A DNA stretch of 64,000 nt from a bacterium (GTDB lineage: Bacteria > Patescibacteriota > Patescibacteriia > Patescibacteriales > GWE2-39-37), in contig JBAWWA010000007.1 in NCBI GenBank assembly GCA_037146995.1, forward strand, positions 22 to 64,021, in the 5' to 3' direction. Within the stretch, counting starts at the first letter, position 1. Each line of letters opens with the position of its first letter. The notes beneath the pieces are model-generated. The model saw only the letters and a list, made by a program, of their open reading frames with translations, was not told where the DNA came from and did not search any database. A program made the translations under genes and the position numbers. Shown one piece after another: positions 5,826 to 51,179 of this stretch.

Positions 5826-7055
5826 TTATTGTAAATAATCTAACGGATTGACTGGGATACCGTTTAAACGGACCTCAAAATGCATGTGTGGGCCAGAGGT
5901 TAGTTTACCGGCTCCGGGTGTGCCTGGCATGGCACCAGACAAACCGATAACATCACCTTGATTGACGTATGAGTCTTCTTCGACCAAAATCTTTGAAACA
6001 TGACCATAAACCGTGGCTAAACCGTCAGCATGCACGATCATAATGTAACTATAACCCATACCGGCATCCTTGGCTCTTGCCACATAACCGGCGGCGGCGG
6101 CGTGGACTTTGGTGCCTTGGGGTGCTCGAATATCAATTGCGGGATGTTCGAACAAGTATCTGAATGGATAATCAGGATCATGAAAATAGGCAGTGATAGT
6201 ATTTTTAGGGACTGGCCAAGTTAGGCCATCAGGATTACTAACCAACTGTTCTTTGCTAGCTTGTAATTTCTGACGGGCTTTTTGCTCATAACTGACTGCA
6301 TCTGCCGAGGCCTGGGATTGTTCTTTTTTGGCTTGAGCAATTAGCGTTTCATATTCAGCCTCCGAGATCATGATTTGCGACAAAATTACAGATTTATTTT
6401 CCTTTTCCGCTTGCAGTTTAGCTAATTTGTCGTCGTATTCAATTTTCAGCTTAGCAAGTTCGGCGACTTTGGTATTTAACTCTGCTTTTTTAGTTTCGAG
6501 TGAGGCTTTGACATCGCGCAAACTGCCAAGACTCAAAGCTAGTTCCCCGTTAACGTCACCTAGGTATTTGAGTTGGTTTAGAAAATCAGAAAATGAATCA
6601 TTTAAAAGCAGTATTTCAAGCGAACTTGTCTGATTTTCCTTGTACAATACTCGCAAGACTGAGCTAATATGTTCTTTTTCCTTGTCGATCGCTTCCTGCT
6701 TATCAAAGATTTCTAAATTGGTCTTGCGCACTTGAAGTTCAGTCTGGTCAAGATTTAATTTAATTGAGTCGGCCTCGATCTGTGTTTTGGCTACATGATT
6801 GTCGAGCATGGCAATCTGATAATTCAAATCTATTTTTTCGTCTTGCTTTTGCGCAAGCAGAGCCTCGTATTCCTTTTGCTTTTTTTGCAGTTCATCGGCC
6901 TGCTCTCGCTTGAGACGAATTTGACGATTCAGCTCTACTACCTCTGGGTTATTCGAGGCGTCTGTCACTTCACCCCTGGCCAAAAATATTCCCGAACTAA
7001 CGGGTATTATCATAATTAGAACAAGAAATAATATTTTGATTTTGGATTTTAACAT
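5826..7055 (-). CDS. M23 family metallopeptidase with long N-terminal coiled coil (EnvC-like murein hydrolase/activator)
   Basis: Signal/TM at the N-terminus and about 250 aa of heptad-rich sequence. The C-terminal LytM domain carries the motifs HPAIDIRAP, GHVSKILV and GPHMHFEVRLNG. Confidence 0.85.
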   Translation of the reverse strand: MLKSKIKILFLVLIMIIPVSSGIFLARGEVTDASNNPEVVELNRQIRLKREQADELQKKQKEYEALLAQKQDEKIDLNYQIAMLDNHVAKTQIEADSIKLNLDQTELQVRKTNLEIFDKQEAIDKEKEHISSVLRVLYKENQTSSLEILLLNDSFSDFLNQLKYLGDVNGELALSLGSLRDVKASLETKKAELNTKVAELAKLKIEYDDKLAKLQAEKENKSVILSQIMISEAEYETLIAQAKKEQSQASADAVSYEQKARQKLQASKEQLVSNPDGLTWPVPKNTITAYFHDPDYPFRYLFEHPAIDIRAPQGTKVHAAAAGYVARAKDAGMGYSYIMIVHADGLATVYGHVSKILVEEDSYVNQGDVIGLSGAMPGTPGAGKLTSGPHMHFEVRLNGIPVNPLDYLQ

Positions 7056-7063
7056 ATGCTTCT

Positions 7064-7073
7064 ATTATAGCAC
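7064..7073 (-). promoter_or_regulatory. extended -10 promoter (TGTGCTATAAT) 8 nt upstream of the M23 peptidase ATG
   Basis: The minus strand reads caaaaTGTGCTATAATagaagcatATG, so the leader is very short or absent. Confidence 0.5.
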
Positions 7074-7205
7074 ATTTTGCCTATACCTGAAAATAGTATG
7101 CTATTTTGGTCCGACATTTGCTAGCCAACCAAAGGTGCTTTCAAAATTCTTGATAATCAAGTCAAAGACCGAGGCGCGCTGTTGCGGGGTGAGGATGTAA
7201 AAAAT

Positions 7206-7259
7206 AAAAAAATCCCCTTCAAATTAGTATTAACTACTTAGTATCTAGGGGATTTTTTT
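7206..7259 (-). terminator. gltX terminator (long-loop hairpin)
   Basis: AAAAAAATCCCCT ... AGGGGATTTTTTT with a 28-nt loop, directly after the gltX stop. Confidence 0.5.
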
Positions 7260-7266
7260 AAGTATT

Positions 7267-8766
7267 TTATTTGCCCAGTTTTTCAATAGCAAATCTGAGT
7301 CGCACTAAGGTCTGGTCTTTATCCAGGGCCTCTGCCACCTCAAACGGTCCAGGACTGGCCTTATGTCCGGTCAACGCGACCCGCAGTGGCCAGAGATATT
7401 CACCATTGGTCTTGCCAAGATTCTTGATATGGCCGAGACAAGCATCCGAGGTCGAGTGCTTGGTCCATTCGGCCGCTGGAATATTTTCAAGTACCTGATA
7501 TATATCCTTTAAATTCGTCTTGATATCTTCATAACTAAATTGTTTCCATTTGAGGAGCTCTAGGTCGTAATGCGGCTTAATAAACAAAAACTCAGTCAAT
7601 TCACCAATATCACTTAATTTTTTCATCCGATCCTGAGCCAGAGCGACGTATAATTTTAATTTTGAAGGTAGCAAGGCCTCGCCGGTTTGATTATTAATAT
7701 AACCCTGCCCCACAACCTCAATCAATTTGGCCTCAACCAAGTATGGCACAACAAGTTTTAGTAATTGCTCATGATCGAGCTGCCGTAAATAATAACCATT
7801 GAGATAGTCCAATTTTTCCAAATCAAAAATCGCCGGACTTGTCCCGATATCCTCGATCTTGAATTGCTCGCAGATTTGCTCAAAGGTCAGGATCTCCTCT
7901 TCACCTTTGGGATGCCAACCGAGCAAGCCACAAAAATTAATCATTGTTTCCTTGAGATAACCCTTGGCTAAAAAATCCTCCACCGAAACATCGCCTTGTC
8001 TTTTTGACAATTTCCCTCCTTCTTTATTAAGTATCAATGGAGCATGAATGTATTTTGGGGCAGACCAACCGAAGGCCTGGTAAAGCAAGATATTTTTGGG
8101 GAAAGATGAGATCCATTCGTCACCGCGCACGATATGCGTAATCTCCATCAGATGATCATCAACTACGTTGGCAAATTGATATGTCGGCATGCCGTCTGAT
8201 TTGATCAAGACGTGATCCTCAAGATTTTCAGCCTTAAAACTGATATCACCATGAATCTCGTCATGCACCACGACTTCCCCGCTAAGCGGCATTTTTTGGC
8301 GAATAGTATAAGTTTCACCTGTGGCAATTTTTGCCTCAACTTCTTCATGACTAAGATCGCGACAGGCTCGATTATAACGTGGTGGTAATTTATTGGCATT
8401 TTGCTCCTCGCGTAGACTCGTCAATTTTTCAGCCGAGCAAAAACAATAATAGGCCTCATTTTTGGCGAGTAGCTCCTTGATATATTGATCATAAATTACC
8501 TGACGTTCACTCTGAACATAGGGTCCAAAATTACCGCCCAAGCCTGGCCCTTCATCAAAATGGAGGTCGAGCGCTGCAAAAACTTCGTATAACTTTTCAG
8601 CCGCTCCAGCAATCTGTCTTTTCTTGTCAGTGTCTTCAAGACGAAAAATACACTGGCCACCATAGTGTCTAGCGATAAAAAAATCAAACAAGGCCATACG
8701 TAAACCGCCGACGTGCAAATAACCGGTGGGCGATGGAGCAAAACGAACTCTAACTGACGTATTCAT
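7267..8766 (-). CDS. gltX: glutamyl-tRNA synthetase
   Basis: N-terminus VRVRFAPSPTGYLHVGGLRMALF (HIGH-type motif) and KLSKRQG (KMSKS motif). The 499-aa length fits. Confidence 0.95.
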   Translation of the reverse strand: MNTSVRVRFAPSPTGYLHVGGLRMALFDFFIARHYGGQCIFRLEDTDKKRQIAGAAEKLYEVFAALDLHFDEGPGLGGNFGPYVQSERQVIYDQYIKELLAKNEAYYCFCSAEKLTSLREEQNANKLPPRYNRACRDLSHEEVEAKIATGETYTIRQKMPLSGEVVVHDEIHGDISFKAENLEDHVLIKSDGMPTYQFANVVDDHLMEITHIVRGDEWISSFPKNILLYQAFGWSAPKYIHAPLILNKEGGKLSKRQGDVSVEDFLAKGYLKETMINFCGLLGWHPKGEEEILTFEQICEQFKIEDIGTSPAIFDLEKLDYLNGYYLRQLDHEQLLKLVVPYLVEAKLIEVVGQGYINNQTGEALLPSKLKLYVALAQDRMKKLSDIGELTEFLFIKPHYDLELLKWKQFSYEDIKTNLKDIYQVLENIPAAEWTKHSTSDACLGHIKNLGKTNGEYLWPLRVALTGHKASPGPFEVAEALDKDQTLVRLRFAIEKLGK

Positions 8767-8926
8767 AAATATTAAATAAAATTGAAATTAATAAAATTGA
8801 AATCAAAATAAAAATATAAAGGCGTTGCTGACGAATAACATTTGACTGATCAAGCCGATCCTTGTCGAGGATCAGACTAGTCACATCGTTTAACAAATAG
8901 ATATATTTTTTAAAACCAAATTTCAT
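8750..8926 (-). CDS. possible 58-aa small membrane protein overlapping the gltX start
   Basis: My own translation is MKFGFKKYIYLLNDVTSLILDKDRLDQSNVIRQQRLYIFILISILLISILFNIYEYVS, with a C-terminal TM. It is below the ORF-track cutoff and has no clear SD. Confidence 0.25.
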   Translation of the reverse strand: MKFGFKKYIYLLNDVTSLILDKDRLDQSNVIRQQRLYIFILISILLISILFNIYEYVS

Positions 8927-8973: not shown

Positions 8974-10164
8974 TTAGCTTTCTTTAATGTACTCATTAAA
9001 CTTGTCCAGAAATTTTTGATAGCCGTCACGACGAATTTCATAGGTTTGCGTCAGTAATCGATCAACTGGCACCCAGCGCCAGGCCGTATGATCCCAAAAA
9101 TTTATAGCAAAATGTTCATCACTGCCCAAATATTCTGCTACATAAAGCGATTGTTTTTGACCTTTGTAGCCTAAGTGCCGTTGCACCTCTGCCCGCCTTT
9201 GCTTATGAAAATTATAGCGAAAGACGTTTTTGTATACACGACGTGTCTCAAACTGTGTCACTCCTAATTCTTCAAAAAGCTCTCGCCGACCAGCTCGCTC
9301 GATCGACTCGCCATCGGTACCACCCTGAGGGAGTTGCCAGTGACCCGACATATCCGCGCGCTCGACCATCAGTACAACGTGGCCACTGGGACTTTTTTTA
9401 TAGAGAAAACAAGCCACATTTGGTCGATATAGGTAAGGCAAGATAAATTGCCATTTGATAAATTTATACAAAAAAACCGCGACAGCGTTCCAGATCCGAC
9501 CCAATCGTTGCGGCTGTTTGTATAATCGCCACAACCACTCGACTCCAATCAGGCGCATAACCTGCGGTGCGCGCGCTATCTTGCCAGTCAAGAAATCTAG
9601 TGCCCCGCCAATACCCATGACTAGCGACAATGAAGGTACTCCGCCCCTTAAATGATAGAGCATTTTTTCCTGAAATGGTGCCCCTAAAGTCGAGAGGATG
9701 ATTTGAGGCTTGAAATCATTTATCATAGTGACATCTAGCTTCTTTTCAGTCCGACTGCAATCCATTACTTTGGCTATCGCCCCCGGATATTTAGTTTGTA
9801 GCATTAGTCTTAGATCATGTTCACTCGACAAGCCATGCTGCCAATTCAAAATCAAGACCTTTAATCTTTGTTCGCTCGCTAGGCCGAGGACGTATTGCAC
9901 CAAGTCGGCACCCGGATAGCGTTCTATATTATGGCCGATCAAGCGAGCCGCCAGTTGTGGTCCAGATCCATCAAGTACGGCCAAGTCGGCATGGTTTAAA
10001 ATATAAAAAAACTCCTCATCATGCTGTGCAGCCAGGATGAATTCGGCATTGGGGGTGACGATTAATTTTTGCTGATTTACTTTTAAATAATCATCAATCT
10101 TTCGTTCAACGGCATTTCTTGAAAGATTCGATAAATTTACTCCTAAAATATTAACTTTGGACAT
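8974..10164 (-). CDS. fusion protein: GT26 (WecG/TagA/CpsF) glycosyltransferase domain + C-terminal RppH/NudH-like Nudix hydrolase domain
   Basis: Residues about 1-240 carry LIVTPNAEF, LAVLDGSGP, GAPFQEKM and GVEWLWRLYKQPQRLGR, which fit the GT26 family. Residues about 245-396 carry YRPNV..., HWQLPQGG, the Nudix core ESIERAGRRELFEELGV, GQKQ and WRWV, and align along the whole length with E. coli RppH as I recall it. Confidence 0.8.
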   Translation of the reverse strand: MSKVNILGVNLSNLSRNAVERKIDDYLKVNQQKLIVTPNAEFILAAQHDEEFFYILNHADLAVLDGSGPQLAARLIGHNIERYPGADLVQYVLGLASEQRLKVLILNWQHGLSSEHDLRLMLQTKYPGAIAKVMDCSRTEKKLDVTMINDFKPQIILSTLGAPFQEKMLYHLRGGVPSLSLVMGIGGALDFLTGKIARAPQVMRLIGVEWLWRLYKQPQRLGRIWNAVAVFLYKFIKWQFILPYLYRPNVACFLYKKSPSGHVVLMVERADMSGHWQLPQGGTDGESIERAGRRELFEELGVTQFETRRVYKNVFRYNFHKQRRAEVQRHLGYKGQKQSLYVAEYLGSDEHFAINFWDHTAWRWVPVDRLLTQTYEIRRDGYQKFLDKFNEYIKES

Positions 10165-10170
10165 AAAGTC

Positions 10171-10199
10171 ATCTTACCCCATGAATTCAAAATCTACAA
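10171..10199 (-). promoter_or_regulatory. promoter TTGTAG-17-TAAGAT ending 6 nt before the ATG (leaderless candidate)
   Basis: The minus strand reads cTTGTAGattttgaattcatggggTAAGATgactttATG. Confidence 0.45.
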
Positions 10200-10278
10200 G
10201 CAATATGCTTGACAATTATGACATATTTTGGTTAAATGTCGTTACAATTTCGTACATTTTAGACAATGGAGGGTGGTT

Positions 10279-10728
10279 ATGCCAACACTGAATCGCGAGG
10301 AAATTTTGAAAATAATACCTCATGGCACCGACGCGTTGATTTTGGATGAAATTTGCGATTATAATCTAACCCCAGGGTCGGAGTTTATTATTGCTAAGGT
10401 TACGCTTTCAACAGATTATAGCAAAATTTTTGAAGGACATTTCCCTGGTTTTCCGGTTGGGCCGGCTCACTGGCAAATCGAAATCGGCTGCCTAGCTGCT
10501 ACCACTCTTTGCGCCCTGATCAAGGGCCAACTCGAACAACCAATTGTCCTGACCGAGCTAAAAAAATTCAAATTCCGTAATTATGCCAGGCCTGATGACA
10601 CCCTGCTTGTGATTATCGATGAGGTCAAAATCAAAAAGCAGAGAATTTTTGATTGTAAGATCACTTTAAATAATCCAACGAATAACAGTTTAATCTGTAG
10701 TGGCTACGTCTCTGGTTGGCTCACTTAA
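10279..10728 (+). CDS. FabZ/FabA-like hot-dog fold dehydratase
   Basis: The motif HFPGFPVGPAHWQIEIGCLAA matches the FabZ HFPxxPVxPG...E active-site pattern. The ATG at 10279 is preceded by GGAGGG, so the upstream extension to 10228 is unlikely. Confidence 0.65.
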   Translation: MPTLNREEILKIIPHGTDALILDEICDYNLTPGSEFIIAKVTLSTDYSKIFEGHFPGFPVGPAHWQIEIGCLAATTLCALIKGQLEQPIVLTELKKFKFRNYARPDDTLLVIIDEVKIKKQRIFDCKITLNNPTNNSLICSGYVSGWLT

Positions 10729-10740
10729 AACTCTCCACAA

Positions 10741-10762
10741 GCGCTAGAAAATAGCGCTTTTT
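10741..10762 (+). terminator. rho-independent terminator
   Basis: GCGCTA-GAAAA-TAGCGC followed by TTTTT. Confidence 0.65.
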
Positions 10763-10768
10763 ATGTAC

Positions 10769-10797
10769 TTGACACATTGGCCAGACTATTTTATATT
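10769..10797 (+). promoter_or_regulatory. sigma-70-type promoter of clpB (TTGACA-17-TATATT)
   Basis: Consensus -35 at 10769-10774, a 17-nt spacer, and the -10 at 10792-10797, immediately upstream of CIRCE. Confidence 0.65.
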
Positions 10798-10801
10798 TAT
10801 A

Positions 10802-10828
10802 TTAGCACTCTACCTTTGAGAGTGCTAA
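10802..10828 (+). promoter_or_regulatory. CIRCE operator (HrcA binding site)
   Basis: TTAGCACTC-tacctttga-GAGTGCTAA is a perfect match to the CIRCE consensus TTAGCACTC-N9-GAGTGCTAA. It sits between the promoter and the clpB start. Confidence 0.85.
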
Positions 10829-10843
10829 ATATGAATTAAAAAT

Positions 10844-13480
10844 ATGATGAATATGTTTGAAAAATTTACCCATAAATCACAAGAAGCCATCATCAACGCT
10901 CAAATAATCGCTCAAGACTCAGGTCAACAGCAAATCGAAGCAGTCCATCTGCTCGCCGCCCTACTCGAACAAAACGAGAGTTTAGTTAAACCAGTATTAG
11001 AAAAACTCAAAATCAACCCGCGTGATGTTTTGCGTGACACTGACAAAGCCATTGAGGCCCTACCCAAATCAAGTGTCTCGAGTACCGTTGGCACTGTTCA
11101 AGGCACGCAAGAAGTTGCTCAAGTCCTTGATCAAGCCAAGAACGAGGCCGATAATTTCGGTGATGAGTTCATCTCAACCGAACATATTTTACTCGCTTTA
11201 GTTTCAGTCAAATCCAAAGTTAGCAAGCTCTTGCAAAATTATGGTGCGACTTATGACGCCTTTTTAAAAATCCTAGCGGAACTGCGCGGCAATCACAAAA
11301 TTACCGACCCAGACCCAGAAACCAAATACAAGACGCTTGAAAAATACGCGGTTAATCTCACAGCCCTGGCTAGGGCTGAAAAGTTAGACCCAGTCATTGG
11401 TCGTGACAACGAAATTCGCCGTATCATGCAGATTCTCTCCCGTCGCAGCAAAAATAATCCCGTCCTGATCGGCGAAGCCGGTACAGGCAAGACTGCCATC
11501 GTTGAGGGGTTAGCTCAGCGTATAGTTTCGGGTGATGTGCCAGAGACCCTCAAGGGCAAAGAGCTAATCAGTCTTGATCTCGCTTCCTTGATCGCCGGTG
11601 CCAAATTCCGTGGTGAATTTGAAGATCGCCTCAGAGCTGTCATTAAAGAGGTCAAAGCCCAAGAAGGCAAAATCATCCTATTCATCGATGAGCTTCATAC
11701 CCTGGTGGGCGCCGGGGCCTCTGAAGGTGCAATGGACGCCTCAAACATGCTCAAGCCTGCCCTGGCCCGCGGTGAACTCCATGCGATTGGCGCAACCACC
11801 ACCAAAGAATACCAAAAATATATCGAAAAAGATGCTGCCCTAGAGCGTCGCTTTCAACCAATTTGGGTAACTGAACCCGATCAAGAAGACGCCCTCTCTA
11901 TTCTGCGTGGTATCAAGGAAAAATACGAAATCCATCATGGTGTCCGCATTACTGATGACGCCCTGATTGCCGCCGTTAAACTGTCATCACGCTACATTGC
12001 TGATCGCTTCTTACCTGACAAAGCTGTTGACTTAGTGGATGAAGCTGCCTCTGCCCTGCGCCTCGAAATCGACTCTAGCCCGGCTGAACTCGATAATATG
12101 AAGCGCGAGATCAAGCGCCTCGAGATAGCCAAGGCCGCCATCAACAAAGAAAAAAAAGGCAGCCCCAAACTACGTGGCATCAACAAGGAATTAGCCCAAC
12201 TCAAAGAAAAGGCCAATCAGCTCGAACTCCATTGGCTCAATGAAAAAGAAGCGATCGGTAAAATCCGCGTCTCCAAAAAGAAAATCGATGAGCTCAAGGC
12301 CAAAGCCGAAATCATTGAACGTCGCGGTGATGATCTCACTCAGGTTGCCGAGATCCGCTATGCCGAAATTCCCGCTCTTGAAACCGAGATAAAAAAACAA
12401 GAAACAAATCTCAATAAAATACAACAAGCCGGCCAAAGAATTCTCAAAGAAGAAATTGACGAAGAGGATATCGCTAAAGCCGTTTCCCGTTGGACCGGCA
12501 TCCCGGTAACCAAAATGCTTGAAAGCGAGATTCAAAAATTAGCCAAAGCCGAAGATGTTTTGCGTAAATGCGTCGTTGGCCAGGATCAAGCCATTGGCAA
12601 ACTGGCTAATGCCCTACGCAGGTCACGCGCTGGCATTGCCGAAGAAAAGAAACCAGTAGGTTCATTTCTTTTTGTTGGTCCAACCGGCGTAGGCAAGACC
12701 GAACTCGCGAAGGCTTTGGCCGAGTTCATGTTTAATGACAAAGACGCCATGATACGAGTCGACATGAGCGAATTCATGGAAAAGCACTCAGTGGCCAAAT
12801 TCATCGGCTCACCTCCTGGTTATGTTGGTCACGATGAGGGTGGGCAGTTGACCGAAAAAATCAGACGCAAACCCTATAGCGTCATCTTGTTTGATGAAAT
12901 CGAAAAAGCCCATCCTGATGTCTTTAATGTTATGCTCCAAATCCTTGATGATGGCCAATTAACCGATTCTAAGGGCCGTACGGTCAACTTCAAGAATTCC
13001 ATTATTATCATGACCTCCAATCTCGGCAACGAGGTCATCAAGGAACACTCACTTGGCTTTCACCAAAACGACGATGACGCCAAGGAAAAAGAATGGGAGT
13101 TAAAAGAGATGCAGGAAAAAATCGACAAGGTCCTAAGAGACCATTTCAAGTTGGAATTCCTCAACCGCATCGACGAAATTCTAATCTTCCAACCACTGTC
13201 CAAAGAGTCACTCGCCAAGATTGTTGATATCGAAATAACCAAGGTTGCCACCAGACTCAAAAACAAAGAAATCATCATCAAGGTCGGATCAAAGGTCAAA
13301 AAACTTTTAGCCGATAAGGGTTATGACATCACCTTTGGTGCACGACCCCTCAAACGCCTGATTCAAACCAAAATTCTCGATGAATTAGCCATGGAAATAA
13401 TCGAAGGCAAAATCAAGGAAGGCAATGAAGTCGTTATCGACATCAATGCCAAAGACGAGGTAGTTTTGAATGTAAAATAA
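10844..13480 (+). CDS. clpB: ATP-dependent chaperone/disaggregase ClpB
   Basis: Clp N-domain, two AAA+ modules (GEAGTGKTA; GPTGVGKTE), a long coiled-coil middle domain, and the sensor/GARPLKR motif. The start could be 10844, 10847 or 10853. Confidence 0.95.
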
Positions 13481-44943: not shown

Positions 44944-45678
44944 TTATTTACAACTTAAAGATTTCTTAAAACCATTTTGTATCGCCTCTTTTTCACTGCA
45001 AAAATATTTTTCACCCGTGCGTATGTTTATGGTTATTTTTTTATAATCAGAGCAACTGGGGAGAAAATAATATCGCTGATGATCACTAGAAATATTGCCC
45101 TTTATCGTACAGACTCCTTGAATTTTTTTATAGCCGTACTGCTTGGCACATGTTGAACTCGCCCACAGTCCGGATTGCGAATTTTGTGCCACAATTTGTG
45201 CCTGTCTGAATTGCTTTTGATATTTATACGGTTTTTTATAGGTAAATTCAAAGGCAGCGCCAGTCTTGACTAATTCCAGGTTATAATTTTTTCCAGTTTC
45301 ATCAAAAACATAGCGCAACAATCGACCGAATTTGTCCCTATCTCCCTGTGACTGATCAGATTCTAGTCTCACTAGTTTATTTGTTAAGCTATTTTTTAAC
45401 TTCAAAGACGATTCTAAACCATAACATTCAATCGGTCGCTTAGGAGCAACAGACTCTGGTGCATTTATGCCCAGAAAACGAACACGCTCGATTTTATTCA
45501 TTATTTTAACATCTATAGTGTCACCATCAACAACCCTGGTAACATAGTAATAATCAACTGGCGCGGCGTTAATTGCTACTGTCTCATTGGCTAATGCCGC
45601 CACGAGCGAAAAATTATCCCTAACAACACAGCCCGATAAAAAAAGCAGTATCAAATTTAATATAATGAAATTTTTCAT
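44944..45678 (-). CDS. secreted lipoprotein thermonuclease (staphylococcal nuclease fold) with C-terminal Cys-bracketed module
   Basis: Lipobox LLFLSGC. SNase motifs VVDGDTIDV, RVRFLGINAPE and GRLLRYVF. The C-terminus is CTIKGNISSDHQRYYFLPSCSDY...YFCSEKEAIQNGFKKS. Confidence 0.85.
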   Translation of the reverse strand: MKNFIILNLILLFLSGCVVRDNFSLVAALANETVAINAAPVDYYYVTRVVDGDTIDVKIMNKIERVRFLGINAPESVAPKRPIECYGLESSLKLKNSLTNKLVRLESDQSQGDRDKFGRLLRYVFDETGKNYNLELVKTGAAFEFTYKKPYKYQKQFRQAQIVAQNSQSGLWASSTCAKQYGYKKIQGVCTIKGNISSDHQRYYFLPSCSDYKKITINIRTGEKYFCSEKEAIQNGFKKSLSCK

Positions 45679-46553: not shown

Positions 46554-47592
46554 TAAATAATTGAGAAAATTCCACCTTGCTCATGACCACCTTGCTGCGT
46601 TGTACTTTATGTTTTATCAGACTTCTTAGACGAAAAACACTGAGCAATTCACCCAAAACAAATCTTTCAAATAACAGCCCATACACAATTTTGACTATGA
46701 TATGCATGCTTGCACGAATCCTTAATTCAAGAGTCATTAAAGCCCAATATTTATATATAATGATTAACTGATTTTTAAAAGACCAGCGTTTAATTTGAGC
46801 ACTGATTTTGCGTCTACCATTGATTATTGACATAAAACCACGATTCGAACCGGAGGCGCTTCTATCATGATATGCCACAGCATTGGGCACTAAAACAGTC
46901 TTTAGGCCGTGCAACTTAAATCGGACAGACAAATCACAATCTTCTTTGTACATAAAAAACAATTCGTCAAACAATTCATTATTCTCAAAATTAGATTTTA
47001 GAGTATTTAAATTAAACATAGCAGCCGCGCCGGTAAAGCCAAAAACTTCGACAGGCTTATATATTTGATTGCGATCAATTTGACCTTGCAAGTAATCATT
47101 AAACATAAAATTATGATTAGCAACCAGACCACAACTATCAATAATTTTAGTTTTAACATTATTAATAAAATCCCACCGAAGTAATTTCGGTACAGCCACG
47201 GCAACATCATGACATAGCAACAGATAATTATACAAAATTTGCACAAAATCTTGATTCAATATCATGTCAACATTTAACATCAAGAAAAAATCAGCCTGCT
47301 TTTCGATTGCCCGCTTGATCAGCATGTTATAGGCAGAGCCAAAACCAATATTGGCATGATCACCAAAAAATTCTGTTGTCAAATTAGCTTCAATTATTTT
47401 TTGTTTATTAATTTCAAATCCAGAGGTCGAATTATCATAAACCAAAAGTTCAAAGTCTTTGAATGTTTGACTTTCAAGCGAAGTTAAAAAATACGACAAA
47501 TATTTTGCCGTTGATTCATTATATGTAACAATCCCAATAATTATTTTATTCATTGCAATTAATTTCCTCCTTAAACTCTCTAATGAAATCAC
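46546..47592 (-). CDS. glycosyltransferase family 2 (start may be 47553, MNKIIIGIVTYNE)
   Basis: Motifs IGIVTYNE, VYDNST, NIGFGSAYN, LNVDM and MYKEDCD. Confidence 0.75.
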   Translation of the reverse strand: MISLESLRRKLIAMNKIIIGIVTYNESTAKYLSYFLTSLESQTFKDFELLVYDNSTSGFEINKQKIIEANLTTEFFGDHANIGFGSAYNMLIKRAIEKQADFFLMLNVDMILNQDFVQILYNYLLLCHDVAVAVPKLLRWDFINNVKTKIIDSCGLVANHNFMFNDYLQGQIDRNQIYKPVEVFGFTGAAAMFNLNTLKSNFENNELFDELFFMYKEDCDLSVRFKLHGLKTVLVPNAVAYHDRSASGSNRGFMSIINGRRKISAQIKRWSFKNQLIIIYKYWALMTLELRIRASMHIIVKIVYGLLFERFVLGELLSVFRLRSLIKHKVQRSKVVMSKVEFSQLFNE

Positions 47593-48196
47593 TCATATAC
47601 TCATGACGATGATTTGCCAAAATTCGACCAGTATCTGTAAGCATGCGTGCAGCTACGAATTTAAGCTTTACTTCATACTCAAGTATGCCAGTATCCTCAA
47701 CTGTATAAGAATATTTATCATGATCTTTTTCCTGTGCTAATAATTCTTCCCTGCCTGTATATATTTCCGCCCCAACCTTGCCTGCAAAATAAAAAGCCCT
47801 AGCTAGCCCGATTGCGCCAATTGAATCAAGTTTATCTGCATCAAAAATAATTTTTGCCTCTAAACTTTGCGGTGCCAAATTCTTTCGATATCGATGTGTT
47901 TTGATACAACCTATTATATTTTGCTTGTCGGCATCTGAGATAGGAAACCCAGCTAATATTTTTTCGGCTTGCTCGCTGCCGAGTTCAGCATGACAACCTT
48001 GACCCTTTGAATCCATCTCTGCCTTTCGACCTATATCATGTAGCAAAGCTGCCACCTCAACGACAAACAAATTAGCATTCTCTGCCTTGGCAATTTTCAA
48101 TGCTAGCAATCTAACAGAATTAACATGCAGCCAACCGTGACAACCACTGGCACCCTGCATCATTTCCTTGGCAATGGCCTCAATCTGATTAATCAT
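47546..48196 (-). CDS. HD-domain phosphohydrolase
   Basis: Motifs HGWLHVNSV and AALLHDIGR (HD motif), and FDADKLD. Confidence 0.75.
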   Translation of the reverse strand: MINQIEAIAKEMMQGASGCHGWLHVNSVRLLALKIAKAENANLFVVEVAALLHDIGRKAEMDSKGQGCHAELGSEQAEKILAGFPISDADKQNIIGCIKTHRYRKNLAPQSLEAKIIFDADKLDSIGAIGLARAFYFAGKVGAEIYTGREELLAQEKDHDKYSYTVEDTGILEYEVKLKFVAARMLTDTGRILANHRHEYMSDFIREFKEEINCNE

Positions 48197-50789: not shown

Positions 50790-51179
50790 TTAATTAACTA
50801 TTTTATTAAGCACCTCATTCATTTCACTTTCCCCACAAGTCATGGTCGGCCAGAAATTACTCAAACCGTCACCGAGCTTTCGAGGAATCAAATGCAAATG
50901 AAAATGAGAAACATCTTGACCTACTACCGATAGAACCACAAAATCAGCTGCTAATTTTTCTTTGAGCGTCACCATTAAGTCCTTAGCAACACTGAAAATA
51001 TGAGCTATTAAAGCCTCAGGAGTTTCAGTCATGTCCTTATAATGATCTTTTGGGATCACCAGCACATGCCCAGAAGTAACAGGCTTTATATCCAAAAATG
51101 CCAAACAGCTAGCATCTTCATAAACTTTATAGCAAGACAATTCGTTGGCAGCAATTTTACAAAAAATACATTCACTCAT
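50790..51179 (-). CDS. HIT-family nucleotide hydrolase/transferase
   Basis: CIFCKI, GHVLVIPK and the histidine triad HFHLHLIP. Confidence 0.85.
   Translation of the reverse strand: MSECIFCKIAANELSCYKVYEDASCLAFLDIKPVTSGHVLVIPKDHYKDMTETPEALIAHIFSVAKDLMVTLKEKLAADFVVLSVVGQDVSHFHLHLIPRKLGDGLSNFWPTMTCGESEMNEVLNKIVN

What the first reader, a model, noticed from the sequence alone, without database searches (positions are those of the whole stretch)
8974..10164. Single ORF fusing a GT26 (TagA/WecG) glycosyltransferase to an RppH/NudH-like Nudix hydrolase
Residues ~1-240 match the WecG/TagA/CpsF family, which transfers ManNAc/ManNAcA onto lipid-linked GlcNAc in teichoic-acid or ECA linkage-unit synthesis. 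Without any linker (…FLYKFIKWQFILPYLYRPNVACFLY…), the ORF continues into a ~150-aa domain. That domain aligns along its full length with E. coli RNA pyrophosphohydrolase RppH as I remember it: YRPNV, WQxPQGG, the Nudix core E-x7-RELFEELGV, GQKQ, WRWV and R..Y...F.

I am not aware of a described GT26-Nudix fusion. Three possibilities follow: the Nudix domain hydrolyses the UDP/UDP-sugar product or substrate of the transferase; it cleaves a pyrophosphate-linked lipid or polymer; or the organism has simply fused two unrelated genes. The junction lies at about nt 9430. The gene appears to have a leaderless promoter (TAAGAT + 6 nt + ATG).
Basis: partly seen in the sequence, partly recalled or inferred. 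Interest (0 to 1): 0.55.

Follow-up and report, generated by a model that had tools for sequence, protein, structure and literature searches.

The report
Glycosyltransferase fused to RppH-like hydrolase
This is a real gene, widespread in ultra-small (CPR/Patescibacteria) bacteria, that joins a TagA-type cell-envelope sugar transferase to an RppH-type nucleotide/RNA-end pyrophosphatase; it arose by joining two neighbouring genes, and what the joined enzyme does has never been tested.

Summary
Window 8974-10164 (-) is one 396-aa ORF. Residues 1-245 are a complete GT26 (WecG/TagA/CpsF) enzyme including its catalytic C-terminal tail. Residues 246-396 are an RppH/Ap4A-hydrolase-type Nudix domain.

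It is not an artefact. 119 of the 120 best database relatives (45-68% identical) carry both Pfam domains, and 71 of the 80 best GTDB species loci encode both domains in one ORF. All named sources are Patescibacteria. Catalytic residues of both halves are nearly invariant.

The origin is resolved. GT26 -> Nudix -> gltX -> M23 peptidase is a conserved CPR gene string.
- In Ca. Uhrbacteria and one Falkowbacteria genome, GT26 and the Nudix are separate adjacent genes.
- In some Parcubacteria, a LigT (RNA 2',3'-cyclic phosphodiesterase)-Nudix fusion occupies the same slot.
- Several lineages kept GT26 and lost the Nudix.

Best reading: a fusion of adjacent genes. The Nudix half is the lineage's RppH-like 5'-polyphosphate (RNA/NpnN/NDP) hydrolase, now held at the membrane by the TagA tail. 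Direct coupling, such as clearing inhibitory UDP, has chemical precedent but no support here. A lipid-pyrophosphate substrate is unlikely.

The architecture is common in public data, is annotated only as a glycosyltransferase, and I found no paper on it.

The parts
8974..10164 (-). Complete 396-aa ORF encoding the GT26-Nudix fusion protein (stop codon 8974-8976)
   Evidence: ORF listing. Both Pfam domains lie in one frame. An identical protein and identical DNA occur in a separate assembly. 119 of the 120 best homologues have the same two-domain architecture.
9568..10164 (-). GT26 (GT-E fold) core domain, aa 1-199, with catalytic and substrate residues T37, N39, D65, R82, Q165, E166 and D190
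   Evidence: PF03808 and TIGR00696 score above their cutoffs. T37, N39, D65 and Q165 are 120/120 conserved, and R82 is 116/120. The AlphaFold2 model superposes on TagA/TarA 5WB4, 5WFG, 7MPK and 7N41 with TM 0.83-0.89. Residue roles are from PMC6493773 and PMC8784642.
9430..9567 (-). TagA-type C-terminal tail, aa 200-245. It carries the catalytic arginines R213, R220 and R223 and the hydrophobic membrane patch (V202, V208, L211, Y215). Its last helix (aa 218-244, nt 9433-9513) runs straight into the Nudix fold.
   Evidence: R213 and R220 are 120/120 conserved and R223 is 119/120. Hydrophobic residues sit at the positions mutated to solubilise TagA (I203, L209, L212, I216 in PMC8784642). The model has a continuous helix 218-244 followed by strand 246-258. 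This segment is essentially gap-free in 120 homologues. Amphipathic moment peaks over aa 206-238.
8977..9429 (-). RppH/Ap4A-hydrolase-type Nudix domain, aa 246-396. The Nudix box is G281...V302 (nt 9259-9324).
   Evidence: PF00293 hit. RppH NCBIfam models score 50-76 bits, below their equivalog cutoffs. The best structural matches are E. coli RppH 7SP3 and 4S2Y, TM 0.79. Residues matching RppH's phosphate and Mg2+ ligands are kept: R247, N249, R269, Q280, E295, E298, E299, Y317, Q336, D358 and R378 (roles from PMC7144940).
10171..10176 (-). -10-like hexamer TAAGAT, 6 nt upstream of the ATG (candidate promoter of a leaderless mRNA)
   Evidence: The sequence is present but the promoter scan did not call it. 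In relatives, hexamers matching TATAAT at 5/6 or better cluster 5-8 nt upstream of the ATG (30 hexamer matches across the 77 loci, 13 of them perfect), and a Shine-Dalgarno-like core occurs in only 2 of 77. This is inference only.
8750..8926 (-). Conserved 58-aa ORF between the fusion gene and gltX. It looks tail-anchored (MKFxFKKYxYLxND... followed by a C-terminal TM helix) and may be an operon partner.
   Evidence: jackhmmer finds it in 13 of the sources searched (the window, 3 relatives fetched earlier, and 9 GTDB loci), always downstream of the fusion. In 5 loci the stop-to-stop frame that holds it overlaps the end of the fusion gene by 9-16 nt. Gene callers also call it in L001 and L005.
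5826..8766 (-). Conserved downstream neighbours on the same strand: gltX (7267-8766) and an M23 peptidase (5826-7055). Together with the fusion they complete the string GT26-Nudix-gltX-M23.
   Evidence: Pfam domains from the precomputed tables. GltX is found in 59 of 80 GTDB loci and M23 in 57 of 80. The same string occurs with unfused GT26 and Nudix in Uhrbacteria and with LigT-Nudix in Parcubacteria.

Best explanation
The gene encodes a genuine bifunctional peripheral-membrane protein. It arose when two adjacent genes of a conserved CPR gene string (GT26 -> Nudix -> gltX -> M23 peptidase) lost the stop codon and spacer between them.

N-terminal half (aa 1-245). This is a complete, catalytically competent GT26/TagA-type inverting glycosyltransferase. 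[quoted passage not shown] Its C-terminal tail supplies three catalytic arginines and binds the membrane.

C-terminal half (aa 246-396). The last helix of that tail continues directly into an RppH-type Nudix domain. This domain is most likely the lineage's RppH/NudH orthologue. I predict it is an Mg2+-dependent hydrolase that removes phosphate or pyrophosphate from nucleotide 5'-polyphosphates: tri- or diphosphorylated or Np4-capped RNA 5' ends, dinucleoside polyphosphates and, more slowly, NDPs and NTPs.

The two chemistries are probably independent. The fusion gives co-expression and places the Nudix at the membrane.

Shown here: the architecture, conservation of the residues, the fold, the synteny, and the existence of unfused, swapped and lost variants. 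Inferred: the substrates of both halves, the membrane location, and the independence of the two activities.
For: The fusion is real and old.
- 119 of the 120 best homologues carry both Pfam domains at 96-100% coverage.
- 71 of 80 GTDB loci encode both domains in one ORF, including copies only 30-35% identical.
- Both halves and the tail are under similar constraint: mean pairwise identity 0.51 (core), 0.57 (tail) and 0.53 (Nudix).

The GT26 half looks competent.
- T37, N39, D65, Q165, R213 and R220 are 120/120 conserved; R223 is 119/120 and R82 is 116/120.
- These residues are the ones shown or proposed to be catalytic in TagA (PMC6493773, PMC8784642).
- The fold matches TagA with TM 0.83-0.89.

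The Nudix half is RppH-like.
- Every E. coli RppH residue that contacts the 5'-phosphates or Mg2+ (PMC7144940) has an identical or conservative counterpart in 115-120 of 120 sequences. These are R8, N10, R27, Q37, Y77, Q95, K140, E53, E57 and E120.
- The best structural neighbours are RppH bound to Ap4A and to RNA.

It is a fusion of adjacent genes.
- Ca. Uhrbacteria has ClpB<-|->GT26 (251 aa), a free Nudix (145 aa), gltX and M23. Four in-frame stops separate the first two genes and there are no Ns.
- Falkowbacteria UBA11705 has the two genes split by a 105-nt spacer.

The N-terminal partner varies while the Nudix stays put.
- A LigT(2H)-Nudix protein lies in the same slot, between hyp500 and gltX-M23.
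- Flank homology to the window is strong: hyp500 4e-103, GltX 1e-114, M23 7e-99.
- Its partner is annotated as an RNA 2',3'-cyclic phosphodiesterase, which points to RNA-end chemistry.
- In a rough tree, GT26-fused, LigT-fused and a few free Nudix copies form one CPR subclade.

The link is not obligatory.
- GT26-only orthologues are nested inside the fusion clade at 4-5 places, mostly in the same synteny.
- Some fusions carry 40-55 extra residues between the domains.
- More distant free relatives sit in housekeeping neighbourhoods.
Against: - The domain scores 50-76 bits against the NCBIfam RppH equivalog models, whose cutoffs are 116-259, so it is not a strict RppH orthologue.
- The nucleobase cleft is remodelled relative to E. 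coli RppH and most free relatives. Among the 120 close homologues, S32 becomes His (117/120), V137 becomes His/Tyr and F139 becomes Val/Ile. Among the 50%-identity representatives, W99 becomes Leu/Val and F121 becomes His. The preferred substrate may therefore differ.
- The junction is essentially gap-free in 120 close homologues (one gapped sequence at aa 240), and the model has pTM 0.83 with one continuous connecting helix. This hints at a fixed mutual orientation, which independent activities would not need.
- The fusion has been kept across deep divergence. Even when unfused, the two genes stay adjacent. That is compatible with a functional link.
- I could not check whether genomes with the fusion also carry a second RppH-like gene. 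No biochemical data exist for any member.
Confidence: 0.55

Rival explanations
1. Dedicated nucleotide partner. The Nudix domain has been recruited to serve the glycosyltransferase. It hydrolyses the UDP product to UMP + Pi, or trims the UDP-sugar donor, right at the active site. That would relieve product inhibition and pull lipid-linked glycan synthesis forward.
For: - TagA follows an ordered Bi-Bi mechanism in which UDP leaves last and is a competitive inhibitor (PMC6493773, read).
- E. coli RppH hydrolyses UDP and other NDPs, weakly at pH 7-7.5 and almost completely at pH 8. The base slides out of the deep cleft to do so (PMC7144940).
- The fused clade has specifically remodelled that cleft.
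- The connector is rigid and of essentially fixed length, and pTM is 0.83.
- The two genes stay adjacent even when unfused.
Against: - The same Nudix subclade is fused to an RNA 2',3'-cyclic phosphodiesterase in the same genomic slot, with no GT26 within 10 kb. It shares part of the cleft remodelling.
- GT26 orthologues lost the Nudix at least 4 times without leaving the locus.
- Some fusions have 40-55-residue inserts between the domains.
- All residues that hold a longer 5'-polyphosphate or dinucleotide are retained.
- No test of activity or of inter-domain geometry was possible.
Confidence: 0.2
2. Regulatory coupling in the manner of RppH-DapF. The GT26 half acts as a built-in allosteric partner or localiser. 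It ties RNA 5'-end decay, or alarmone/cap turnover, to the state of envelope-glycan synthesis or to the membrane.
For: - In E. coli, RppH is bound and stimulated by DapF, a cell-wall precursor enzyme (PMC4227774 and PMC6061855 abstracts). RppH-DapF complexes 6D13, 6D1Q and 5YGU are among the closest structures.
- The TagA tail switches between a soluble dimer and a membrane-bound active monomer (PMC6493773). That switch could gate the attached Nudix.
- The geometry is conserved.
Against: - This is purely by analogy. GT26 and DapF are unrelated, and nothing here shows an interface or allostery.
- The free, LigT-fused and GT26-only variants show that neither domain needs the other.
Confidence: 0.12
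3. Lipid or polymer pyrophosphatase. The Nudix cleaves the pyrophosphate of undecaprenyl-PP or of Und-PP-linked glycan intermediates, for carrier recycling or proofreading at the membrane.
For: - The connector is a hydrophobic/amphipathic helix that should hold the Nudix at the membrane surface.
- From my own knowledge, not tested here: some Nudix enzymes hydrolyse prenyl diphosphates.
Against: - The domain keeps the full set of RppH residues that bind a nucleotide 5'-polyphosphate and a base (R269, the counterpart of RppH R27, is 120/120). It also keeps the GQxQ and YR.N motifs.
- Its closest relatives are free cytoplasmic-type Nudix proteins and RNA-phosphodiesterase fusions.
- No feature suggests a lipid-binding groove.
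Confidence: 0.05
4. Artefact. A sequencing or assembly error merged two ORFs in this contig.
For: Genuine unfused versions exist in other lineages, so a stop could in principle have been lost by error.
Against: - A separate assembly gives the identical sequence.
- Hundreds of independent genomes and metagenomes have the same continuous ORF. The junction is essentially gap-free and conserved, with A227 and F231 invariant.
Confidence: 0.01

Closest known systems
TagA/TarA (GT26, GT-E fold), e.g. Thermoanaerobacter italicus TagA (PDB 5WB4, 5WFG, 7MPK, 7N41)
   Same: - The match runs the full length, including the C-terminal tail (aa 1-229, E=2e-30), and the fold agrees at TM 0.83-0.89.
- The catalytic Asp65 and Thr37, Asn39, Arg83, Gln167, Asp191 and the tail Arg214/221/224 are all conserved.
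- The hydrophobic membrane patch is conserved.
   Different: - It scores 110 bits against the TarA equivalog model, whose cutoff is 350.
- Uracil contact K166 is Phe/Tyr here, and Y137 has no aligned counterpart, so neither the UDP-ManNAc donor nor a teichoic-acid role can be assumed.
- No TagO, MnaA, TagB or LCP gene lies in the 64-kb window.
- A 150-aa Nudix domain follows the tail.
E. coli RNA pyrophosphohydrolase RppH/NudH (PDB 4S2Y, 7SP3, 6VCx)
   Same: - It is the best structural match of the C-terminal half (TM 0.74-0.79).
- The sequence matches end to end.
- All phosphate- and Mg2+-binding residues are conserved (roles from PMC7144940 and PMC8833179).
   Different: - It scores below all five RppH equivalog cutoffs.
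- The base cleft is remodelled: S32 to H, V137 to H/Y, F139 to V/I, W99 to L and F121 to H.
- In this protein and about half of the fused clade, the Nudix loop is one residue shorter.
- It is fused to another enzyme instead of standing alone.
E. coli RppH-DapF complex (PDB 6D13, 6D1Q, 5YGU)
   Same: An RppH-type enzyme is physically joined to an enzyme of cell-envelope precursor synthesis. This is a possible precedent for cross-talk (abstracts of PMC4227774 and PMC6061855).
   Different: That association is non-covalent, and DapF is unrelated to GT26. Here the link is covalent through a helix. No evidence of allostery was obtained.
CPR LigT(2H phosphoesterase)-Nudix proteins (e.g. KKU39550.1, Parcubacteria; named 'RNA 2',3'-cyclic phosphodiesterase')
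   Same: - It has the same Nudix subclade and the same genomic slot, directly upstream of gltX-M23 and flanked by hyp500, LigB, Def and Fmt.
- The Nudix is again the C-terminal domain of a two-enzyme fusion.
   Different: The N-terminal partner is an RNA-end phosphodiesterase rather than a glycosyltransferase. There is no GT26 within 10 kb.
Unfused GT26 + Nudix gene pairs (Ca. Uhrbacteria JACQSD010000026.1; Falkowbacteria UBA11705 DOZJ01000003.1)
   Same: They have the same two genes in the same order, with the same flanks (ClpB upstream, gltX-M23 downstream).
   Different: They are two separate proteins with 75-105-nt spacers containing stop codons. Their Nudix has the canonical G-x5-E loop.

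Membership tests
GT26 / WecB-TagA-CpsF glycosyltransferases (PF03808, GT-E fold) | The profile match exceeds the curated thresholds | tested here: met
   PF03808 scores 115.2 bits against a cutoff of 27.4. TIGR00696 scores 84 bits against a cutoff of 69.
GT26 / WecB-TagA-CpsF glycosyltransferases (PF03808, GT-E fold) | Catalytic base Asp65 plus pocket residues Thr37, Asn39, Arg83, Gln167 and Glu168 (T. italicus numbering, PMC6493773) | tested here: met
   D65, T37, N39 and Q165 are 120/120 conserved; R82 is 116/120 and E166 is 117/120.
GT26 / WecB-TagA-CpsF glycosyltransferases (PF03808, GT-E fold) | C-terminal tail with Arg214, Arg221 and Arg224, and a hydrophobic membrane-binding patch (PMC8784642) | tested here: met
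   R213 and R220 are 120/120 conserved and R223 is 119/120. V202, V208, L211 and Y215 are hydrophobic at the patch positions. The model has helices 201-206, 209-216 and 218-244.
GT26 / WecB-TagA-CpsF glycosyltransferases (PF03808, GT-E fold) | GT-E three-dimensional fold | tested here: met
   The AlphaFold2 model has pLDDT 93. Foldseek matches 5WB4, 5WFG, 7MPK and 7N41 with TM 0.83-0.89 and rmsd 2.1-2.6 A. This is a predicted structure, not a solved one.
TagA/TarA proper (UDP-ManNAc:GlcNAc-PP-undecaprenol ManNAc transferase of wall teichoic acid) | Equivalog-level sequence match | tested here: not met
   NF041710 scores 109.8 bits against a cutoff of 350. WecG NF002980 scores 83.5 bits against 323.
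TagA/TarA proper (UDP-ManNAc:GlcNAc-PP-undecaprenol ManNAc transferase of wall teichoic acid) | UDP-ManNAc contacts: N39 and Q167 (sugar), D191 (ribose), K166 and Y137 (uracil) (PMC8784642) | tested here: inconclusive
   N39, Q165 and D190 are invariant. K166 is F164 here (Tyr or Phe in the family), and Y137 has no aligned aromatic residue.
TagA/TarA proper (UDP-ManNAc:GlcNAc-PP-undecaprenol ManNAc transferase of wall teichoic acid) | Pathway partners TagO/WecA, MnaA (UDP-GlcNAc 2-epimerase), TagB and an LCP ligase in the genome | tested here: inconclusive
   None is found in the 64-kb window, which instead has MraY, MurG, FtsW, MurA, a Bac_transf initiating transferase, GT2 and GT4 enzymes and RmlA/B/D. 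The rest of the genome was not available.
Nudix hydrolase superfamily (PF00293) | Profile match and Nudix box G-x5-E-x7-R-E-U-x-E-E-x-G-U | tested here: met
   PF00293 scores 58.5 bits against a cutoff of 21.1. The stretch E286-x7-R294-E295-L-F-E298-E299-L-G-V is present, but the spacing is G281-x4-E286, one residue short. E295 is 119/120 conserved and E298 and E299 are 120/120.
RppH/NudH RNA pyrophosphohydrolase | Equivalog-level sequence match (NCBIfam PRK00714 models) | tested here: not met
   The best score is 76.0 bits against a cutoff of 116; the others score 50-71 bits against cutoffs of 118-259.
RppH/NudH RNA pyrophosphohydrolase | 5'-phosphate and Mg2+ ligands R8, N10, R27, Q37, Y77, Q95, K140, E53, E57 and E120 (PMC7144940) | tested here: met
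   Conservation among 120 sequences: R247 120, N249 115, R269 120, Q280 120, Y317 117, Q336 119, R378 120 (Arg in place of Lys), E295 119, E299 120, and D358 as 96 Asp plus 24 Glu.
RppH/NudH RNA pyrophosphohydrolase | Nucleobase cleft R27, S32, V137 and F139 | tested here: not met
   Only R27 is kept. S32 is His in 117/120. V137 is His 80, Tyr 22 and Phe 7. F139 is Val, Ile, Cys or Leu. The 50%-identity representatives show the same trend, plus W99 to Leu and F121 to His.
RppH/NudH RNA pyrophosphohydrolase | Removal of pyrophosphate or phosphate from RNA 5' ends; Np4 decapping | not testable with these tools
   This needs enzyme assays with pppRNA, ppRNA, Np4-RNA and Ap4A.

The most novel reading that the evidence does not exclude
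The Nudix half is not just a passenger. It may be a membrane-held NDP or UDP(-sugar) pyrophosphatase that removes the inhibitory UDP made by the attached glycosyltransferase. That would be the bacterial counterpart of the Golgi logic in which a UDPase sits next to glycosyltransferases. Alternatively, like RppH-DapF, it may be a hard-wired link that couples RNA 5'-end decay to envelope-glycan synthesis in organisms with minimal regulatory capacity.
Probability: 0.2. Interest if true: 0.65.

Novelty: new variant of a known kind. Interest (0 to 1): 0.4.

Why it matters
CPR/Patescibacteria make up a large share of bacterial diversity, and their envelope biogenesis and RNA turnover are almost unstudied. 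This protein is a conserved core-locus gene in hundreds of their species. Current annotation describes only its first 240 residues.

Recognising the second half as an intact RppH-type enzyme does three things:
- It corrects the annotation.
- It identifies the likely RNA 5'-end or dinucleoside-polyphosphate hydrolase of these lineages.
- It provides a natural series of variants (fused to GT26, fused to an RNA cyclic phosphodiesterase, free, or lost) for testing whether gene fusion in streamlined genomes reflects function or mere adjacency.

If the two activities turn out to be coupled, it would be a second, independent case, after RppH-DapF, of RppH-type enzymes being tied to cell-envelope synthesis.

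Tried and rejected
- Artefact hypothesis: rejected.
- L087, where the closest free Nudix (P0122) lies next to a GT26 gene, looked like a split version. The two ORFs flank a run of N in a scaffold, so I discarded it as evidence.
- Nudix remnants downstream of GT26-only genes: none found. L064 and L069 end 131-182 nt after the gene and cannot be judged.
- A second family-type Nudix in the window or in about 1.3 Mb of related flanks: only one weak hit, in L037. This says nothing about the rest of those genomes.
- Literature: three searches found no description of a GT26-Nudix fusion or of RppH in CPR. The apparent 'TagA' mentions in CPR papers were an author's surname.
- Foldseek against the PDB found no entry spanning both halves.
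- I could not obtain model coordinates or PAE, so the distance between the active sites is unknown. The pTM of 0.83 is only indirect evidence for a fixed orientation.
- The NJ trees are distance trees without support values and serve only for coarse placement.
- GTDB record titles such as 'uncultured Gammaproteobacteria' and 'Bacillota' for loci with CPR synteny were treated as unreliable labels, not as evidence that the fusion occurs outside CPR.
Full report
**1. The observation**

Window 8974-10164 on the minus strand is a single 396-aa ORF. The profile hits are:
- Pfam PF03808 (Glyco_tran_WecG) over aa 59-224, E=3.6e-33.
- Pfam PF00293 (NUDIX) over aa 246-381, E=9.6e-16.
- NCBIfam TarA, WecG and the superfamily model TIGR00696 over aa 2-239, and five RppH models over aa 246-394.
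- Against PDB sequences, aa 1-229 align with Thermoanaerobacter italicus TagA (7MPK, E=2e-30). Residues 246-391 align with E. coli RppH and Lupinus Ap4A hydrolase (E about 1e-11 to 1e-12).

One detail was missed: the Nudix-box loop is one residue short, G-x4-E instead of G-x5-E.

**2. It is not an artefact**

- A separate Logan assembly of run SRR7053542 is 100% identical over 5,686 nt spanning the gene. It is the same population, so it supports the assembly rather than adding an independent lineage.
- The large protein database returned 719 relatives at E<=1e-5. 119 of the 120 best carry both Pfam domains at 96-100% coverage and 45-68% identity.
- I ran my own HMMs for the two halves on six-frame ORFs of the best 80 loci. 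71 loci have both domains in one ORF, 8 have GT26 only, and 1 has two adjacent ORFs.
- Named records are Falkowbacteria, Parcubacteria, Jacksonbacteria, Moraniibacteriota and 'Patescibacteria group'. Some titles ('uncultured Gammaproteobacteria', 'Bacillota') sit on loci with the same CPR synteny and look like placeholder labels.
- GC content and codon usage do not change between the halves.

**3. Anatomy**

I aligned the 120 homologues with TagA, RppH and Ap4A hydrolase.

*GT26 half.* The residues that the TagA papers identify as catalytic or substrate-binding are essentially invariant. These are T37, N39, D65, R83, Q167 and D191, plus the tail arginines R214, R221 and R224 (PMC6493773, PMC8784642). 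The four hydrophobic tail positions that had to be mutated to solubilise TagA are hydrophobic here.

*Nudix half.* E. coli RppH uses R8, N10, R27, Q37, Y77, Q95 and K140 for the 5'-phosphates, and E53, E57, Q37 and E120 for Mg2+ (PMC7144940). Every one of these has an identical or conservative counterpart in 115-120 of 120 sequences.

*Base-binding cleft.* The cleft is changed.
- In the 120 close homologues: S32 becomes His (117/120), V137 becomes His/Tyr and F139 becomes Val/Ile.
- In the 50%-identity representatives: W99 becomes Leu/Val and F121 becomes His.
- Most free relatives keep the E. coli-like aromatics there.

*Connection between the halves.*
- AlphaFold2 with this alignment gives pLDDT 93.2 and pTM 0.83.
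- The last tail helix (aa 218-244) runs without a break into the first Nudix strand.
- That segment is essentially gap-free in 120 sequences (one gap, at aa 240) and is amphipathic and hydrophobic.
- Foldseek matches the two halves separately to TagA/TarA (TM 0.83-0.89) and to RppH (TM 0.74-0.79). RppH ranks ahead of the Ap4A hydrolases, and nothing in the PDB spans both halves.

Mean pairwise identity is similar for the core, the tail and the Nudix: 0.51, 0.57 and 0.53. A motif regex found the Nudix catalytic core in 64 of 68 complete GTDB fusions. Of the other four:
- L035 has the motif beyond my search span.
- L027 has a Glu-to-Gly change.
- L045 and L062 were mis-sliced by my script and were not assessed.

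**4. Context**

The window is a typical CPR core region. It holds SerRS, a Xer-type recombinase, an M23 peptidase, GltX, the fusion, a FabA-like protein, ClpB, Def and Fmt. It also holds MurG, FtsW, MraY, type IV pilus genes, MurA and an L,D-transpeptidase.

Further along is a lipid-linked glycan cluster with RmlA/B/D, four GT2s, two GT4s and a Bac_transf initiating transferase. There is no TagO, MnaA, TagB or LCP in these 64 kb, so the glycan that the GT26 half serves cannot be named.

The order fusion -> (small ORF) -> gltX -> M23 recurs widely. ClpB is often divergent upstream. GltX is found in 59 of the 80 GTDB loci and M23 in 57.

**5. Origin of the fusion**

Four observations settle the origin.

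(a) *Unfused in Uhrbacteria.* In Ca. Uhrbacteria (GCA_016206165.1) the same string reads ClpB<-|->GT26 (251 aa), free Nudix (145 aa), gltX, M23. Four in-frame stops lie between the first two genes and there are no Ns. A second assembly is identical over its 2,336 nt, which begin at the end of GT26 and run through the spacer and Nudix into gltX.

(b) *Split in one Falkowbacteria genome.* In Falkowbacteria UBA11705 the two genes are separated by a 105-nt spacer with stops in all frames.

(c) *Different partner in the same slot.* In some Parcubacteria and other Patescibacteria, the slot directly upstream of gltX-M23 holds a LigT(2H phosphoesterase)-Nudix fusion.
- The flanks are homologous to the window: hyp500 E=4e-103, LigB, Def, Fmt, GltX 1e-114, M23 7e-99 and SerRS.
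- No GT26 lies within 10 kb.
- In a rough tree, the GT26-fused, the LigT-fused and a few free Nudix domains form one CPR subclade. It is separate from E. coli-type RppH.

(d) *Repeated loss.* GT26-only genes are nested within the fusion clade at four or five places, mostly with the same synteny and with no Nudix remnants.

So GT26 and the Nudix are old operon neighbours that fused early in a large clade: all the deepest branches of the GT26 tree are fusions. The Nudix was later split off once and lost several times. The Nudix can also take a different N-terminal partner. More distant free relatives lie in unrelated housekeeping neighbourhoods.

**6. Mechanism**

I am confident of the following.
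- The N-terminal 245 residues are an active GT26 enzyme.
- By the TagA model, it works as a membrane-bound monomer on a polyprenyl-PP-sugar acceptor and a UDP-sugar donor.
- The C-terminal domain is an active RppH-type Nudix.

My best reading (confidence 0.55) is that the Nudix is the lineage's RppH/NudH-like hydrolase of nucleotide 5'-polyphosphates: RNA 5' ends, Np4 caps, dinucleoside polyphosphates and, slowly, NDPs. The fusion mainly provides co-expression and membrane placement. The supports are:
- the complete RppH phosphate and Mg2+ apparatus;
- the RNA-end phosphodiesterase as an alternative partner in the same slot;
- the free, split and lost variants.

The main rival (0.2) is direct service to the transferase by hydrolysing UDP. 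UDP is TagA's last-released product and a competitive inhibitor (PMC6493773). E. coli RppH does hydrolyse UDP, with the base leaving the deep cleft (PMC7144940), and that cleft is what the fused clade remodelled. The rigid connector and the persistent adjacency fit this rival. The LigT variant, the repeated losses and the 40-55-residue inserts in some lineages do not.

A DapF-like regulatory link (0.12) rests on analogy only. A lipid-pyrophosphate substrate (0.05) is disfavoured because all nucleotide-binding residues are retained.

**7. Membership**

The protein meets every tested GT26 criterion. It fails the TarA and WecG equivalog thresholds and differs at the uracil contacts. I therefore file it as GT26, not as TagA proper.

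The Nudix half meets the Nudix and RppH catalytic-residue criteria and has the RppH fold. It fails the RppH equivalog thresholds and the base-cleft test. It works like an RppH, but it is not shown to be one.

**8. Promoter**

TAAGAT lies 6 nt upstream of the ATG. It has no convincing -35 element, and the scan did not call it.

Among 77 relatives, hexamers matching TATAAT at 5/6 or better concentrate 5-8 nt upstream of the start codon (30 matches, 13 of them perfect). A second cluster lies at 22 and 27 nt in one subclade. Only 2 of 77 have a Shine-Dalgarno-like core. A leaderless or very short-leadered mRNA is therefore plausible but unproven.

**9. Novelty and verdict**

Both enzyme families are well known, and the fused architecture is abundant in public CPR genomes. 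It is annotated only as a glycosyltransferase, and I found no paper on it. It is a new, uncharacterised variant of known kinds.

Its origin is explained: it is a fusion of adjacent genes. Its combined function is untested. Interest is moderate (0.4). It would rise if the two activities prove to be coupled.

Noticed in passing
window 8750-8926 (-): A conserved 58-aa ORF lies between the fusion gene and gltX (MKFGFKKYIYLLNDVTS... followed by a C-terminal TM helix, so it looks tail-anchored). It turns up in 13 of the sources searched (the window, 3 relatives fetched earlier, and 9 GTDB loci), always just downstream of the fusion. In 5 loci the stop-to-stop frame that holds it overlaps the end of the fusion gene by 9-16 nt. 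In the window it overlaps the gltX start by 17 nt. It may be a membrane partner of the operon.
   Followed up: partly
L093-L097 (e.g. LCMP01000009.1 8440-9423); proteins P0275, P0163, P0194, P0200, P0252: A LigT/2H RNA 2',3'-cyclic phosphodiesterase fused to the same Nudix subclade occupies the same syntenic slot upstream of gltX-M23 in some Parcubacteria and other Patescibacteria; a member of its protein cluster is also recorded from Jacksonbacteria. Both H-x-T motifs are intact. This would make a putative two-ended RNA 'end-processing' enzyme. I saw no description of it in the searches run for the main question, none of which targeted it.
   Followed up: partly
window 10197-10211: A perfect palindrome, CAAGCA-TAT-TGCTTG, lies in the divergent intergenic region between the fusion gene and the FabA-like gene. 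The scan flagged it as terminator-like, but its position suggests an operator instead.
   Followed up: no
window 44944-45678, 47546-48196 and 50790-51179 (all -): A staphylococcal-nuclease-like protein, an HD-domain protein and a HIT-family (Ap4A/HinT-like) protein are interleaved with the rhamnose, GT2 and GT4 glycan genes. So nucleotide-hydrolysing enzymes again sit among glycan-synthesis genes.
   Followed up: no
L019, L021, L024, L033, L051, L056, L075 (GT26 domain); L035, L065, L071 (junction): Some sublineages carry insertions of about 20-60 residues inside the GT26 domain. Others have 40-55 extra residues between the tail and the Nudix, so the tight junction seen in the window's clade is not universal.
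   Followed up: no
L009, L014, L018-L021 and many other GTDB loci; L045: Records titled 'uncultured Gammaproteobacteria' (TPA_asm, binchicken and SRP co-assemblies) and one titled 'Bacillota' carry the CPR-type fusion, and most checked also show CPR synteny (L045 has M23, Xer and SerRS but no GltX hit). The organism names in these titles look like placeholders or misassignments.
   Followed up: no
L027 (CAYYDR010000001.1) 9995-11191: One otherwise intact fusion has RELRGE in place of RE..EE. It has lost a catalytic Glu of the Nudix box, so its Nudix half may be inactive.
   Followed up: no
upstream regions of the GT26(-Nudix) genes in L004, L013, L020, L027, L029, L034, L076 and others: One subclade has a perfect TATAAT 27 nt upstream of the ATG and a second -10-like ATTATA element 5 nt upstream. 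These may be alternative promoters or a conserved short leader.
   Followed up: no
P0218 (466 aa, Holosporaceae, named RNA pyrophosphohydrolase): An RppH-like Nudix is fused to a divergent polysaccharide deacetylase (PF04748) in an alphaproteobacterial endosymbiont. This is another RppH-type domain joined to an envelope-related enzyme.
   Followed up: no
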